Below are positions 20,622 through 23,188 of a stretch of DNA of 32,000 nucleotides, piece after piece. The stretch comes from Aliivibrio fischeri ES114. Its GTDB lineage: Bacteria > Pseudomonadota > Gammaproteobacteria > Enterobacterales > Vibrionaceae. The notes below the pieces were generated by a model that ran no database searches, was not told the DNA's origin, and saw only the letters and a list, made by a program, of their open reading frames with translations. How positions within the stretch are numbered: the first letter of the stretch is position 1; each line of letters starts with the position of its first letter. The stretch is taken from the NCBI RefSeq assembly GCF_000011805.1, contig NC_006841.2; one strand, 5' to 3'. A program made the position numbers and the translations under genes.

Positions 20622-21395
20622 TTAGTCAACAGACATACACTTGATTAGGCCTGATTTTGCTTTATAGCGGTTGAACCATGATTTCACTGGGCTTGCCAAT
20701 ACGTTGACTGGTGGTTCGTCACCATTCATTACAACTGGACCAAACATTAAATCAAGGATATGCCATGCTTTAGTGCCAACGCCCATCATAGAGGCACGAC
20801 ATGCAGAGCAGTACACAACAACGTGGCCTGTTTTAAACTCTTCAACACGACGTTGAATAACACGTTTAGCTACATCAGGGTTTGCAGGAACCACCATGCC
20901 ACCAAAGCCACAACAACGTGTGTTCTCTTTGGTGTATTCAGGTTCTGCAATTTGATAACCAAGCTCAGTTAAGATCCAGCGAATACCTGCTTGAAGCTCA
21001 CTTTCATAACGTGTAGAACAAGAGTCATGAATGGTGAATACCACATCGCTGTTTTTCGCTTTACCAATTAACTCAGCAGGAAGGCCGATTTGAGGTAGCA
21101 ATTTCCATAGTGATACCGGTTTTTGATTACCGCCTGATTTTTTAATGACCGCATAACAACTTTGACAAGCCACGATCACTTCTTGTGCAGCAAGCTTATC
21201 GAAATCCGCTTGCAGTTGACCGTAACGCTCTTTAAATAGCTCAGTTTGACCGATAGCTGATGTTGGTTTACCACAACACTTTTGTACTGCACCCATATCT
21301 GGGTACACTTCTTTTAGATATTTTGCGATGCTTGCAACGCCTTCTGGCGAGTAGGATGGCAGACTGCATCCTGGCATAAATACTTTATTACTCAT
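20622..21395 (-). CDS. HdrB-like protein with two CCG cysteine-rich domains
   Basis: It has two CCG motifs: PGC...CCGKP...CQSC and DSC...CCGFGG...CSAC. It has no signal peptide. Its start overlaps the upstream stop (ATGA). Confidence 0.8.
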   Translation of the reverse strand: MSNKVFMPGCSLPSYSPEGVASIAKYLKEVYPDMGAVQKCCGKPTSAIGQTELFKERYGQLQADFDKLAAQEVIVACQSCYAVIKKSGGNQKPVSLWKLLPQIGLPAELIGKAKNSDVVFTIHDSCSTRYESELQAGIRWILTELGYQIAEPEYTKENTRCCGFGGMVVPANPDVAKRVIQRRVEEFKTGHVVVYCSACRASMMGVGTKAWHILDLMFGPVVMNGDEPPVNVLASPVKSWFNRYKAKSGLIKCMSVD

Positions 21396-23188
21396 TTTGA
21401 AGCCACCGTACGTTTAGCCATAGTGAAGAATTTAGAGAAGCCAAGCTTCTGGTGCATATTGATTGCTTTGTGTCCCGGGATTGGAGAGTTACCGCCATTG
21501 GCATTAACAAAATCCACACGAGCACTTAAGAACATTTCTTTCATTGGGTAGTCTTTAGGACAAACAATCGTACATTGGTCACAGGCATTACATGAATAAG
21601 CCAGTAGGGGATCCATGGTTTTGTTATTAATGAAATCACTAAACAAGGTTTTAGGGCAATCGCCAAAGTCATTCATCATCACACATTCATTCATGCACAA
21701 TTTACAAGTACATTGCAGACAGCGAGACGCTTCTTGCTTGATTTGTTCTTCTGAAAAACCAAGATCAACTTGTTTAAAATCTTGCTTACGTTCTTCAGCA
21801 TCACGTAATTGACCATGTAGGCGAGGTGTATCGGTCGTGCCTTTTGGAAGCGGAATATCAAGACGAGAAGGGTAGTTGTACTCTTTCTCAAAATCACGAT
21901 TTTCAGTAAGAGGACGCTTAGCGAATTGACGCTCAATACTCAGTGCCGCTTTATGACCTAGTGCCATTGCCTCAACAACAATGTTACCGCCACAGGCATC
22001 ACCAGCAACGTAAACACCGTCAACGGAAGACGCTAGGGTATCTTTATCAACCACGTAACGGCCGCCACGAGTTTGTTCAAGAGCACCATCAGTAATGTCT
22101 GCTACTACTTGTCCTGTTGCGAAAATAACGGTATCTACAGCGATCGTACGGGTTTCATCCGAGTAACTTGGTGAAAAGTTGCCATTTTCATCAAAAATAG
22201 AAATGACTTTTTTAAGTACGATTCCAGTTACTTTTCCGTCTGTTTCTTCAATTGAAATCGGTCCCCAGCCAGCATTAAATAACACGCCTTCTTCTAGAGA
22301 TTCATCAATTTCAATTTGGCTTGCAGGCAGTTTCGCCATTTCTTCTAATGAACATTGGTGTACTTCATCTACACCGATGCGCCATGATGAACGAGCACAG
22401 TCCATAGCAACGTCTCCGCCGCCAATGACCATGATTCGCTTACCTGCACGAGGGAAATCACGAGTTTCTGATACTTCTTTTAGATATTCAACCGCAGAGA
22501 ATACGCCTTGCGCTTTGTGGCCTGGAAGCGGAATGATTGAACCAACATGAGCACCGTGAGCTAAAATAATAGCGTCATGAGAAAGACGAAGCTCATTGAA
22601 AGAGATGTCTTTACCTATCTCTATTCCGAATTTCGTTTCAATACCTAACATATCTAAATAGCCGTATTCAAAATCGATAACATCGCGCGGTAAACGGTAT
22701 TCAGGAATACCCACACGCATCATGCCACCGTAAACATTCAGCTTTTCATAGATCGTCACTTGGTGACCGCTACGGCGAAGCTCAATCGCTGCTTGTGCAC
22801 CAGCGGGGCCAGCACCAACAATAGCGATTTTTTTACCGCTGTCATTGGCAACGGTCAGATCCCAATTGCTTTGTTTATCCATTTTTTCGGCAACAAAGCG
22901 TTTGATCCCTGCAACACTGATTGGTTGGTTATACTCAGTATTACGACGACATGCTGCTTCACATGGATGAGCACAAATACGGCCAAGAGTTTGAGGTAAG
23001 AAAAGTTTGCCGCGGATCAGATCTAAAGCTTCTTGGTAGTTACCTTCACCCGCTAAGCGTACATATTGTTTCACATCCGTGTGCATTGGACATGCAGTTT
23101 GACATGCTGGGTCGGCATCACCCATGCAGCCATCTACGACCATTTGGGCGGTATCGTAGAGTTTTTGACTAAAAATTACATTGCTCAT
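21392..23188 (-). CDS. GltD-like NAD(P)H flavoprotein fused to a C-terminal HdrC-like 2x[4Fe-4S] domain
   Basis: The N-terminal Fe-S region (CQTACPMHTDVKQY...RICAHPCEAACRR) and the dinucleotide folds (KIAIVGAGPAGAQAA; IMVIGGGDVAMDCA) match the glutamate synthase small-subunit family. The C-terminus adds CLQCTCKLCMNEC and CNACDQCTIVCP. Confidence 0.8.
   Translation of the reverse strand: MSNVIFSQKLYDTAQMVVDGCMGDADPACQTACPMHTDVKQYVRLAGEGNYQEALDLIRGKLFLPQTLGRICAHPCEAACRRNTEYNQPISVAGIKRFVAEKMDKQSNWDLTVANDSGKKIAIVGAGPAGAQAAIELRRSGHQVTIYEKLNVYGGMMRVGIPEYRLPRDVIDFEYGYLDMLGIETKFGIEIGKDISFNELRLSHDAIILAHGAHVGSIIPLPGHKAQGVFSAVEYLKEVSETRDFPRAGKRIMVIGGGDVAMDCARSSWRIGVDEVHQCSLEEMAKLPASQIEIDESLEEGVLFNAGWGPISIEETDGKVTGIVLKKVISIFDENGNFSPSYSDETRTIAVDTVIFATGQVVADITDGALEQTRGGRYVVDKDTLASSVDGVYVAGDACGGNIVVEAMALGHKAALSIERQFAKRPLTENRDFEKEYNYPSRLDIPLPKGTTDTPRLHGQLRDAEERKQDFKQVDLGFSEEQIKQEASRCLQCTCKLCMNECVMMNDFGDCPKTLFSDFINNKTMDPLLAYSCNACDQCTIVCPKDYPMKEMFLSARVDFVNANGGNSPIPGHKAINMHQKLGFSKFFTMAKRTVASK

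What the first reader, a model, noticed from the sequence alone, without database searches (positions are those of the whole stretch)
20622..23188. Unusual GltD-HdrC fusion paired with an HdrB-like CCG protein: a predicted NAD(P)H-dependent disulfide/persulfide reductase
The 598-aa protein joins a complete glutamate-synthase-small-subunit-like module to a C-terminal two-cluster ferredoxin domain (CLQCTCKLCMNEC, CNACDQCTIVCP). The N-terminal module has two Fe-S cysteine sets and FAD and NAD(P)H folds. The next gene overlaps it by ATGA and carries two CCG motifs, the hallmark of the HdrB active site that reduces heterodisulfides on non-cubane [4Fe-4S] clusters. This gives a self-contained electron path: NAD(P)H, FAD, Fe-S, then the CCG site. 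It has no HdrA, no hydrogenase or formate dehydrogenase partner and no membrane anchor, so it differs from archaeal HdrABC, the sHdr sulfur-oxidation complex, and LutABC/GlpC. A GltD homologue, Pyrococcus SudA, is known to reduce polysulfide in vitro, which gives a precedent for sulfur chemistry.
Basis: partly seen in the sequence, partly recalled or inferred. Interest (0 to 1): 0.75.

Follow-up and report, generated by a model that had tools for sequence, protein, structure and literature searches.

The report
NADH-linked Hdr-like reductase in sulfur operon
Two overlapping Aliivibrio fischeri genes encode an uncharacterised iron-sulfur flavoenzyme that probably uses NADH to cleave a sulfur-sulfur bond, and it is the cytoplasmic part of a widely conserved, tetrathionate-regulated gene set that also has an exported rhodanese, a DedA/VTT membrane protein and an ABC importer.

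Summary
On the minus strand, a 598-aa GltD/NfnB-type Fe-S flavoprotein with an extra C-terminal two-cluster domain (21392-23188) overlaps by ATGA a 257-aa protein with two complete CCG motifs (20622-21395). The cofactor chain is plausible, but the pair is neither rare nor self-contained.

- **Family.** Fused orthologues (~850 aa) pass NCBIfam NF045663, a named family with no known function.
- **Context.** In 22 of 30 informative loci from at least seven phyla or orders, the pair sits with an exported rhodanese and a YdjX-like VTT/DedA membrane protein. A YnjBCD-like ABC importer and a YnjF-like phosphatidyltransferase often accompany them.
- **Fusions.** Natural reductase-CCG-VTT, HdrD-like-VTT and rhodanese-VTT fusions exist, and their membrane topology is consistent.
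- **Regulation.** In Vibrionaceae a TtrSR paralogue lies divergently, with a conserved TtrR box between. In published V. parahaemolyticus RNA-seq data the orthologues fall 7- and 18-fold in a ttrR mutant, and the TtrR-bound EMSA probe maps onto this promoter.

Most likely role: an NADH-driven S-S bond reductase for sulfane or thiosulfonate sulfur derived from thiosulfate or tetrathionate. The substrate is unproven.

The parts
21392..23188 (-). 598-aa GltD/NfnB-type Fe-S flavoprotein. It has an N-terminal Fer4_20 domain (3+3 invariant Cys), FAD and NAD(P)H folds, and a second, C-terminal two-cluster domain (5+4 Cys). Probably prefers NADH.
   Evidence: Pfam and NCBIfam hits. PDB sequence matches to 9bov_A (deposited as molybdopterin oxidoreductase), the Sporomusa transhydrogenase subunit 8oh5_C (StnC), NfnB and GltD, E 6e-96 to 3e-51. 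Invariant Cys. The C-terminal domain matches Fer4_17 and Fer4_20. YRR is replaced by SLE.
20622..21395 (-). 257-aa double-CCG (HdrB/HdrD-type) subunit; start overlaps the upstream stop as ATGA
   Evidence: Pfam CCG twice. Ten invariant Cys in two C..CCG..CxxC sets. AF2 pLDDT 90. Foldseek hits to EtfD, LutA and HdrB. Adjacent or fused in 30 of 30 loci.
23218..24201 (-). 327-aa exported or membrane-anchored tandem rhodanese; first gene of the operon; active-site loop CQSGVRS
   Evidence: Pfam Rhodanese twice. Signal, lipoprotein or anchor N-termini and the conserved CQSGVRS loop across phyla. Present in 22 of 30 loci. 26% identical to E. coli YnjE.
19929..20606 (-). 225-aa VTT/DedA-superfamily membrane protein (YdjX-like), 15 bp after the CCG gene
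   Evidence: Pfam VTT_dom. 40% identical to E. coli YdjX. Present in 23 of 30 loci. Fused to CCG, HdrD-like or rhodanese modules elsewhere, with consistent topology.
18543..19688 (-). YnjB-like periplasmic substrate-binding protein of an ABC importer (240 bp after the VTT gene)
   Evidence: NCBIfam NF008633, 530 bits against a cut-off of 203. 43% identical to E. coli YnjB. Adjacent in 15 of 30 loci.
16864..18525 (-). YnjC-like double-length ABC permease
   Evidence: Weak hits to PhnV, PotC, CysT and ModB-type permeases. 38% identical to YnjC over 195 aa. Cluster C03.
16203..16850 (-). YnjD-like ABC ATPase
   Evidence: 51% identical to E. coli YnjD. NCBIfam ABC ATPase hits.
15602..16210 (-). 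YnjF-like CDP-alcohol phosphatidyltransferase; overlaps the ATPase gene by 8 bp
   Evidence: Pfam CDP-OH_P_transf. 60% identical to E. coli YnjF. Cluster C06 in Vibrionaceae, Clostridia, Bacillaceae, Fusobacteriaceae, Halanaerobiales and a spirochaete.
24512..26311 (+). TtrS-paralogue sensor kinase with a periplasmic Phosphonate-bd domain, divergently transcribed
   Evidence: Pfam. NCBIfam TtrS model scores 357 bits against a cut-off of 750, so it is a paralogue. Counterpart of V. parahaemolyticus Q4437_05905.
26320..26937 (+). TtrR-paralogue LuxR-type response regulator
   Evidence: NCBIfam TtrR model scores 202 bits against a cut-off of 290. Counterpart of Q4437_05910.
24408..24419 (.). TtrR box GTGGTAAACCAC in the divergent promoter region. 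It is the only exact GTGG-N4-CCAC in the 32-kb window. A one-mismatch copy lies at 24343-24354.
   Evidence: The same single exact box lies in the same intergenic region in six other Vibrionaceae loci. Box defined in PMC11293645.

Best explanation
The two genes encode the two halves of one cytoplasmic iron-sulfur flavoenzyme.

Inferred electron path: NADH (less likely NADPH) reduces FAD in the GltD/NfnB-like module. Electrons then pass through the N-terminal Fe-S domain and the additional C-terminal two-cluster domain to the double-CCG subunit. By analogy with HdrB, HdrD and DsrK, that subunit's two five-Cys sites would bind non-cubane [4Fe-4S] clusters that cleave an S-S bond.

The enzyme is the inner-face redox module of a conserved, laterally mobile unit. 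That unit comprises an exported rhodanese, a YdjX-like VTT/DedA membrane protein and, often, a YnjBCD-like ABC importer with a YnjF-like phosphatidyltransferase.

Proposed sequence, inferred rather than shown:
1. The exported rhodanese takes sulfane sulfur from thiosulfate, tetrathionate or polysulfide outside the cell.
2. A sulfur-carrying species crosses the membrane by way of the VTT protein. Some Firmicutes also have an adjacent YeeE/YedE-TusA pair.
3. The reductase cleaves its S-S bond (a persulfide, polysulfide or S-thiosulfonate on a small thiol or a TusA-like carrier) at the expense of NADH. This releases sulfide or sulfite for assimilation or detoxification and regenerates the carrier.

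In Vibrionaceae the operon is switched on through a TtrR-type box by tetrathionate-sensing two-component systems.
For: Shown here:
- Domain and cysteine anatomy, with conservation.
- CCG fold.
- Obligate pairing and fusion of the two proteins.
- Co-localisation with rhodanese and VTT in 22 of 30 informative loci from Vibrionaceae, Clostridia, Bacillaceae, Fusobacteria, spirochaetes, Desulfovibrionaceae, Syntrophales and Halanaerobiales.
- Independent fusions: GltD-CCG-VTT (L029, L032, P0253/55/56/59), Fer4+CCG+VTT (P0416, P0427, P0440, P0476), CCG-VTT (P0368) and rhodanese-VTT (L049, P0379, P0391). Their topology puts rhodanese outside and CCG inside.
- All rhodanese orthologues carry export signals and the same CQSGVRS loop.
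- A TusA-family gene sits between split YeeE/YedE-like halves directly upstream in L008 and L031.
- A TtrSR paralogue lies alongside, and one exact TtrR box lies in the divergent promoter in all seven Vibrionaceae loci examined.

From the literature:
- In V. parahaemolyticus, Q4437_05895 (FAD-dependent oxidoreductase) and Q4437_05890 ((Fe-S)-binding protein) change by log2 -4.18 and -2.88 in a ttrR deletion. TtrR binds the P05905 probe (PMC11293645).
- I mapped that probe's primers with 0 mismatches onto the kinase/rhodanese intergenic region of the orthologous locus L084.
- The E. coli counterpart of the accessory genes (ydjXYZ-ynjABCD, ynjE) is directly activated by FNR, which points to an anaerobic role (PMC3688515).
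Against: - No biochemical or genetic test of these proteins was found in the library.
- The closest structural relatives of the CCG subunit are EtfD and LutA, whose known roles do not involve disulfide reduction (own knowledge). HdrB is only third (TM about 0.59) and is not significant by sequence profile (E 0.4-0.7).
- In V. parahaemolyticus a ttrA mutant makes no detectable H2S from thiosulfate or tetrathionate. This system is therefore not, on its own, a bulk H2S-forming thiosulfate reductase.
- The rhodanese gene itself is not in the published list of differentially expressed genes.
- The role of the YnjBCD and YnjF genes is not explained by simple persulfide reduction.
- Selenium-related signals exist: the NF045663 model's short name in the tool output is 'diclust_near_Sec' (which I read as 'near selenocysteine'), YedE/FdhT gives the best hit for the split transporter, and the rhodanese weakly resembles ExtH.
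- The VTT protein has no conserved Cys, so it cannot relay sulfur covalently.
Confidence: 0.45

Rival explanations
1. Selenium handling. The rhodanese binds selenium derived from selenite outside the cell. The VTT or YedE-like transporter brings it in. The NADH/CCG enzyme then reduces a selenotrisulfide or perselenide to selenide for selenophosphate synthesis or detoxification.
For: The NCBIfam model that the fused orthologue passes has the short name 'diclust_near_Sec'. The split transporter halves score best against the 'selenium metabolism membrane protein YedE/FdhT' model. The rhodanese weakly matches the selenite/tellurite operon rhodanese ExtH. The flavoprotein aligns over nearly its full length with the YgfK 'putative selenate reductase subunit' model. 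Homologues occur in selenium-respiring Salisediminibacterium. From my own knowledge, a DedA protein has been implicated in selenite uptake.
Against: All of these hits are far below the family cut-offs. The Vibrionaceae regulator is a TtrS/TtrR paralogue, and the operon responds to the tetrathionate regulator. No selD, selA or selB genes or selenoprotein genes were seen in the window or in the loci examined.
Confidence: 0.13
2. Not a thiol or disulfide enzyme. The CCG subunit acts only as an electron-transfer or membrane-docking module, as in EtfD, GlpC or LutA. It would pass electrons from NADH to a quinone or another membrane acceptor, or take part in oxidising an organic acid.
For: The best structural matches are EtfD (E 7e-8) and LutA (TM 0.64-0.68), ahead of HdrB. 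The best sequence match in the PDB is EtfD. Fusion to a membrane protein recalls membrane-bound HdrD-like proteins.
Against: The membrane partner is a VTT/DedA protein with no sign of haem or quinone-site motifs. The conserved neighbours are sulfur-trafficking proteins (rhodanese, TusA, YeeE/YedE-like), not dehydrogenases for organic acids. No LutB, LutC, GlpA or GlpB homologues are nearby.
Confidence: 0.12
3. Reverse direction. Like the sHdr sulfur-oxidising complex, the CCG subunit oxidises carrier-bound sulfane sulfur delivered by sulfurtransferases, and the GltD-like module reduces NAD+.
For: sHdr systems are always accompanied by rhodanese, TusA and DsrE sulfurtransferases (PMC11094781). 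GltD-like modules are reversible in Nfn-type enzymes (the PDB relatives; reversibility is my own knowledge).
Against: No lipoate-binding protein, HdrA or DsrE genes lie in any locus. The hosts are mostly fermentative anaerobes rather than sulfur oxidisers. The rhodanese is extracytoplasmic.
Confidence: 0.07
4. Repair rather than use. Tetrathionate and other reactive sulfur species oxidise or S-thiosulfonate thiols. The enzyme would re-reduce such damaged low-molecular-weight or protein thiols when tetrathionate is present.
For: Induction through the tetrathionate-responsive TtrR. The lack of H2S in a ttrA mutant is compatible with a low-flux repair role.
Against: This does not explain the conserved exported rhodanese, the VTT fusions, the ABC importer or the YnjF-like enzyme. 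Most hosts lack the TtrSR pair next to the cassette.
Confidence: 0.1

Closest known systems
Heterodisulfide reductase catalytic modules HdrB/HdrC and HdrD (and DsrK)
   Same: Two CCG domains, each with the five-Cys pattern C..CCG..CxxC, preceded by a two-cluster ferredoxin-type domain. The predicted fold matches HdrB.
   Different: Sequence similarity to HdrB is not significant (E 0.4-0.7). The ferredoxin-type domain does not match HdrC specifically. Electrons come from a GltD-like NADH flavoprotein, not from HdrA/MvhD, HdrE or DsrM. The substrate is unknown, and the membrane partner is a VTT/DedA protein.
GltD / NfnB / StnC family of Fe-S flavoproteins (also SudA and DsrL, from own knowledge)
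   Same: Fer4_20 N-terminal domain plus FAD and dinucleotide folds. Matches 9bov_A (deposited as molybdopterin oxidoreductase) at E 6e-96, 8oh5_C (StnC of the Sporomusa transhydrogenase, by my identification) at 1e-86, NfnI at 2e-63 and GltD at 7e-54.
   Different: The YRR NADPH motif is replaced by SLE. The N-terminal domain has 3+3 rather than 4+4 Cys. There is an extra C-terminal two-cluster domain that repeats the GltD N-terminal signature. The partner is a CCG protein rather than GltB or NfnA.
NCBIfam NF045663 'pyridine nucleotide-disulfide oxidoreductase/dicluster-binding protein' (diclust_near_Sec)
   Same: The fused orthologue P0241, whose gene lies next to rhodanese and VTT genes, passes the cut-off (547.7 against 530). 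The window pair matches model positions 8-199 and 420-639.
   Different: The A. fischeri version is split into two genes, so neither half reaches the cut-off. The family has a name only and no assigned function.
E. coli ydjXYZ-ynjABCD / ynjE / ynjF cluster (FNR-activated, function unknown)
   Same: It shares a YdjX-type VTT protein (40% identity), YnjB (43%), YnjC, YnjD (51%), YnjF (60%) and an exported rhodanese, YnjE (26%).
   Different: E. coli has no GltD-like or CCG genes. In their place it has the lipoprotein YdjY, a second VTT protein YdjZ and the AhpD-like YnjA.
TtrRS-ttrBCA-tsdBA tetrathionate circuit of Vibrio parahaemolyticus (PMC11293645)
   Same: The adjacent kinase and regulator are paralogues of TtrS and TtrR. 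The same GTGG-N4-CCAC box is present. The orthologous genes depend on ttrR for expression.
   Different: The operon encodes no molybdoenzyme or cytochrome. The paper treats 05905-05910 only as an auxiliary two-component system and does not discuss the neighbouring operon.
CCG proteins with no known disulfide-reductase role: EtfD, LutA, GlpC
   Same: Best structural and sequence matches in the PDB.
   Different: The partners of those proteins (ETF, LutBC, GlpAB) are absent here, and the genomic context is sulfur trafficking.

Membership tests
CCG / HdrB-type cysteine-rich domain proteins (PF02754) | Two CCG domains, each with the C-Xn-CCG-Xm-CxxC five-Cys pattern | tested here: met
   Pfam CCG with 2 stretches, E 1.9e-15. 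Ten invariant Cys in the expected spacing.
CCG / HdrB-type cysteine-rich domain proteins (PF02754) | HdrB-like fold | tested here: met
   AF2 model with pLDDT 90. Foldseek hits: EtfD E 7e-8, LutA TM 0.64-0.68, HdrB (8rwn_B, 7bkb_B) TM about 0.59.
Heterodisulfide reductase (HdrBC/HdrD) as an enzyme | Non-cubane [4Fe-4S] clusters and thiol/disulfide catalysis | not testable with these tools
   Needs EPR or Moessbauer spectroscopy and enzyme assays.
Heterodisulfide reductase (HdrBC/HdrD) as an enzyme | Significant sequence relationship to HdrB | tested here: not met
   A profile of 14 orthologues against the PDB finds HdrB chains only at E 0.38-0.69.
HdrC | The two-cluster ferredoxin domain is specifically HdrC-like | tested here: inconclusive
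   The domain passes Fer4_17 (35 bits against 22.2) and Fer4_20 (28.2 against 25.8). The best PDB sequence matches are the GltD and NfnB N-terminal domains, with no HdrC chain at E<=10. The fold test failed because the isolated-domain model had pLDDT 39.
GltD / NfnB-type Fe-S flavoproteins | Fer4_20 Fe-S domain plus FAD and NAD(P)H Rossmann folds | tested here: met
GltD / NfnB-type Fe-S flavoproteins | NADPH-specifying YRR motif after the second Rossmann beta-strand | tested here: not met
   StnC, NfnA, NfnI-L and GltD show YRR(T/D). The window protein shows S280-L281-E282, conserved across the family.
Glutamate synthase small subunit (TIGR01317/TIGR01318) | Score above the curated cut-off | tested here: not met
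   236 bits against 483, and 207 against 448. No GltB gene is nearby.
NCBIfam NF045663 | Whole-protein score of at least 530 bits | tested here: inconclusive
   The split halves score 239.7 and 211.7 bits. The fused orthologue P0241 scores 547.7 and passes. A second clade that sits next to EamA-family transporter genes scores 431-448 and fails.
TtrS / TtrR tetrathionate two-component system | Equivalog score above cut-off | tested here: not met
   TtrS model 357 against 750; TtrR model 202 against 290. These are paralogues, matching 05905/05910 of PMC11293645.
YnjB-type ABC substrate-binding protein (NF008633) | Score above cut-off | tested here: met
   530 bits against 203. 43% identical to E. 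coli YnjB.

The most novel reading that the evidence does not exclude
The VTT/DedA-family protein is the transmembrane link of a previously unrecognised envelope-spanning sulfur machine. An exported rhodanese loads sulfane sulfur on the outer face. The VTT protein passes the sulfur-carrying species across the membrane. That species could be a thiol-bearing lipid or conjugate built by the YnjF-like transferase from a compound imported by YnjBCD. An NADH-driven HdrD-type reductase docked on the inner face then unloads it. This would give the first defined substrate class for the YdjX/TVP38 branch of the DedA superfamily. It would also explain the E. coli ydjXYZ-ynjABCDEF genes.
Probability: 0.2. 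Interest if true: 0.85.

Novelty: new variant of a known kind. Interest (0 to 1): 0.6.

Why it matters
CCG/Hdr-type enzymes are known from methanogenesis, dissimilatory sulfur metabolism and lactate or glycerol-3-phosphate oxidation. An NADH-fed version wired to an exported rhodanese through a DedA/VTT membrane protein was not described in the literature I could search.

The cassette occurs in gut and host-associated bacteria such as Vibrio parahaemolyticus, V. harveyi, Aliivibrio fischeri, Fusobacteria and Clostridia. In Vibrio it belongs to the tetrathionate-responsive regulon, which promotes gut colonisation. It may therefore be an overlooked route by which bacteria use host-derived thiosulfate or tetrathionate.

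It also offers a concrete, testable handle on two long-standing unknowns:
- the substrates of the TVP38/YdjX branch of the DedA superfamily;
- the function of the FNR-activated E. coli ydjXYZ-ynjABCD, ynjE and ynjF genes.

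Tried and rejected
- **HdrC fold test.** I modelled the isolated C-terminal domain with a 12-sequence alignment. Confidence was too low to use (pLDDT 39, pTM 0.24).
- **Profile search against HdrB.** A profile of CCG orthologues against PDB sequences found HdrB only at non-significant E-values. 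The fold comparison was needed instead.
- **Covalent sulfur relay through the VTT protein.** Rejected, because Cys58 is replaced by Ala, Thr or Pro in many orthologues.
- **Promoter and terminator scans** of 15400-24600 found fewer promoter-like sites than in shuffled sequence and nothing informative in the 240-bp VTT-SBP gap.
- **Literature searches.** Searches for characterised GltD+CCG enzymes and for the function of ynjA-F and ydjX-Z found only regulon and family-level mentions.
- **Arsenosugar lead.** TIGR04282 and TIGR04283 transferases plus a kinase replace YnjF in some Firmicutes. A literature search on this gave nothing relevant, and I did not pursue it further.
- **Bulk thiosulfate-to-H2S electron sink.** Downgraded, because the V. 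parahaemolyticus ttrA mutant makes no detectable H2S.
- **Cluster distances.** Model coordinates are not exposed by the tools, so distances between clusters could not be measured.

Full report
**Source and observation.** The window is from Aliivibrio fischeri: the exact 598-aa protein is on NCBI assembly GCA_001029395.1, and close homologues carry that species name. On the minus strand, ORF 21392-23188 (598 aa) and ORF 20622-21395 (257 aa) overlap by ATGA.

The larger protein has a Fer4_20 Fe-S domain (residues 19-106), a Pyr_redox_2 FAD/NAD(P)H module (120-403) and a C-terminal Fer4_17 two-cluster domain (489-546). So are six N-terminal Cys, in two sets of three.

The smaller protein has two CCG domains. 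Its ten invariant Cys are arranged as two C..CCG..CxxC sets. An AlphaFold2 model (pLDDT 90) is most similar to the CCG proteins EtfD, LutA and HdrB.

**Corrections to the anatomy.**
- The C-terminal domain is a two-cluster ferredoxin-type domain, but I could not show that it is HdrC-like. Its best matches among solved structures, by sequence, are the N-terminal Fe-S domains of GltD and of Thermotoga NfnB (4ylf_B, deposited as DPD subunit A). These include the 'R..ER..DF.E....G.s.E.a..EA.RCLqC' signature that normally opens GltD-family proteins. No HdrC chain is found at E<=10. A fold test on the isolated domain failed (pLDDT 39).
- In 9bov_A (deposited as molybdopterin oxidoreductase), 8oh5_C (which I identify as StnC of the Sporomusa transhydrogenase), NfnA, NfnI-L and GltD, the strand after the second GGGD(T/V)AMD motif ends in YRR(T/D). 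The window protein has Ser280-Leu281-Glu282 there, conserved across the family. By the usual Rossmann-fold rule, and because YRR marks NADPH binding in this family (my own knowledge), NADH is the likelier donor.

**The pair is neither rare nor unnamed.** Thousands of homologues exist, all with generic names. Many orthologues are single 840-900-aa fusions of the two proteins. One of these, P0241 from Thermohalobacter, passes the NCBIfam equivalog NF045663, 'pyridine nucleotide-disulfide oxidoreductase/dicluster-binding protein' (547.7 bits against 530). The two A. fischeri halves match its two ends. A sister clade of fused proteins sits next to an EamA transporter instead and scores below the cut-off.

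**The pair is not self-contained.** I scanned one genome per species for relatives and compared the neighbourhoods. In 30 loci with at least 3 kb on both sides:
- CCG is adjacent or fused in 30;
- a tandem rhodanese is present in 22, and a VTT/DedA membrane protein in 23 (both together in 22);
- a YnjB-like binding protein is present in 15, with permease and ATPase in 16;
- a YnjF-like CDP-alcohol phosphatidyltransferase is present in 11.

These loci come from Vibrionaceae, Clostridia, Bacillaceae, Fusobacteria, spirochaetes, Desulfovibrionaceae, Syntrophales and Halanaerobiales.

The A. fischeri gene order is rhodanese, flavoprotein, CCG, VTT, YnjB, YnjC, YnjD, YnjF (24201 down to 15602). It is identical to that of Alkaliphilus, Clostridium sediminicola and Caloramator, whose proteins are 52-65% identical. 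This suggests lateral transfer of the whole unit.

The accessory genes correspond to the E. coli cluster ydjX-ydjY-ydjZ-ynjA-ynjB-ynjC-ynjD / ynjE / ynjF. Identities are YdjX 40%, YnjB 43%, YnjD 51%, YnjF 60% and YnjE 26%. That cluster is of unknown function and is directly activated by FNR (PMC3688515). E. coli lacks the flavoprotein/CCG pair.

**Fusions tie the parts together physically.**
- Triple fusions of flavoprotein, CCG and VTT (~1090-1130 aa) occur in Syntrophales and in metagenomes.
- Among the closest VTT relatives in a 1.8-billion-protein library there are CCG-VTT, Fer4+CCG+VTT and rhodanese-VTT fusions (L049).
- The topology is coherent. Every rhodanese orthologue starts with a signal peptide, a lipoprotein signal or an anchor helix. 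In the rhodanese-VTT fusion an extra helix followed by a Lys-rich loop returns the chain to the cytoplasm before the first VTT helix. The cytoplasmic CCG module joins that same first helix directly.

So the rhodanese works outside the membrane, the reductase works inside, and the VTT protein lies between them. The VTT protein has no conserved Cys, so it is a conduit and not a covalent relay.

**Sulfur-specific evidence.**
- The rhodanese active-site loop CQSGVRS is conserved across phyla.
- In Alkaliphilus and Halonatronum a TusA-family gene, flanked by the two halves of a YeeE/YedE-like transporter, lies directly upstream of the reductase. YeeE-YeeD is a thiosulfate uptake pair (PMC11073785).
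- In Vibrionaceae only, a TtrS/TtrR paralogue pair is transcribed divergently.
- The only exact match in the 32-kb window to the published TtrR box GTGG-N4-CCAC lies in the 310-bp divergent promoter region, at 24408-24419. The same is true in six other Vibrionaceae loci.

**Published data connect the operon to tetrathionate.** In V. parahaemolyticus (PMC11293645), RNA-seq of a ttrR deletion lists four neighbouring genes:

| Gene | Annotation | log2 change |
|---|---|---|
| Q4437_05895 | FAD-dependent oxidoreductase | -4.18 |
| Q4437_05890 | (Fe-S)-binding protein | -2.88 |
| Q4437_05905 | TtrS-like kinase | -1.63 |
| Q4437_05910 | response regulator | -2.16 |

The authors show that TtrR binds the 05905 promoter, but they do not discuss the neighbouring genes. 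I fetched the V. parahaemolyticus locus that encodes the CCG orthologue (L084). Their EMSA primers map to it with no mismatch at 3785-4036. Their lux-fusion primers map at 3787-4202 (one of them with a single mismatch). Together these cover the whole kinase/rhodanese intergenic region, including the box at 3994. The operon therefore belongs to the tetrathionate-responsive regulon. The same paper shows that a ttrA mutant makes no detectable H2S from thiosulfate or tetrathionate. This argues against the new system being a bulk thiosulfate reductase on its own.

**Mechanism proposed.**
- Shown: the cofactor-binding anatomy, the obligate pairing, the conserved partnership with the exported rhodanese and the VTT protein, and TtrR-dependent expression.
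- Inferred: the electron path NADH to FAD to Fe-S clusters to the CCG site; reductive cleavage of an S-S bond in a persulfide, polysulfide or thiosulfonate species that originates from periplasmic thiosulfate or tetrathionate; and passage of that species through the VTT protein.
- Unexplained: the roles of YnjBCD and YnjF. In some Firmicutes and Halanaerobiales, YnjF is replaced by TIGR04283 and TIGR04282 transferases and a kinase. This hints that an imported compound is activated and conjugated, possibly to a lipid.

**Rivals.** The alternatives are selenium handling, a non-thiol electron-transfer role like that of EtfD or LutA, sHdr-like oxidation, and repair of tetrathionate-damaged thiols. 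Each is scored in the rival explanations.

**Verdict.** This is a real and well-conserved enzyme of a known general kind (CCG/Hdr-like reductase fed by a GltD-like flavoprotein), but in an undescribed configuration and context. The claims of rarity, self-containment, lack of a membrane partner and HdrC identity do not. The function remains untested, so the interest lies in the conserved rhodanese-VTT-reductase module and its link to tetrathionate-responsive gut and symbiosis biology.

Noticed in passing
L014, L017, L020, L040, L046 (e.g. L040:15473-17494; L020:4972-5679): In some Clostridia and Halanaerobiales the YnjF-like gene is replaced, downstream of the YnjBCD-like genes, by a TIGR04283 GT2 transferase, a TIGR04282 CofC-like transferase (NCBI names both 'arsenosugar biosynthesis glycosyltransferase') and an APH-type kinase. 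A nucleoside hydrolase sometimes accompanies them. This suggests the imported compound is activated and conjugated.
   Followed up: partly
L021, L028, L033, L035-L037, L039, L041, L043, L045, L047, L056: A sister clade of fused ~865-aa GltD-CCG proteins lacks the rhodanese and, except in L056, the VTT gene. It is always preceded by an EamA-family transporter, often with a sigma-54-type regulator. These proteins score 431-448 bits on NF045663, below the cut-off.
   Followed up: partly
P0376, P0408 (library proteins): Close relatives of the VTT protein are fused at the C-terminus to a DUF547 domain. This is another uncharacterised VTT architecture.
   Followed up: no
L083 (E. coli K-12 1834116-1836063: ydjY, ynjA): In E. 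coli the position of the reductase pair is taken by YdjY and the AhpD/CMD-family YnjA. YdjY is a lipoprotein-like protein with a C-terminal CLVCLDSCP motif and no Pfam hit. They may be an alternative redox module for the same system.
   Followed up: partly
window 19689-19928: A 240-bp gap separates the VTT gene from the YnjB-like gene, whereas all other junctions in the eight-gene unit are 29 bp or less, or overlap. This suggests two transcription units or an internal regulatory site. The consensus scans found nothing there.
   Followed up: partly
window 671-1812: A TorD/DmsD-type chaperone (Nitrate_red_del) and a 185-aa multi-cluster ferredoxin lie at the window edge. They look like the tail of a molybdoenzyme operon lying mostly outside the window.
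   Followed up: no
window 3153-4907: A gamma-glutamyltranspeptidase gene (584 aa, Pfam E 4e-159) lies about 15 kb from the operon. I saw no evidence of linkage.
   Followed up: no
window 27031-27705: A 224-aa NAD(P)-binding HIM1/NAD_binding_10-like protein follows the response regulator. It is conserved there in Aliivibrio loci (L001-L003) but not in other Vibrionaceae.
   Followed up: no
window 79-456 and 9445-9789: Two ORFs (125 and 114 aa) have no Pfam match. I did not examine whether they are real genes.
   Followed up: no
window 15602-24201 vs L008, L009, L016: The eight genes are in the same order as in Alkaliphilus, Clostridium sediminicola and Caloramator. The reductase, CCG, rhodanese and VTT proteins are 52-65% identical, and the binding protein 33-35%. 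This suggests inter-phylum transfer of the whole cassette. The GC content of the operon region (0.40-0.44) is slightly above that of much of the window.
   Followed up: partly
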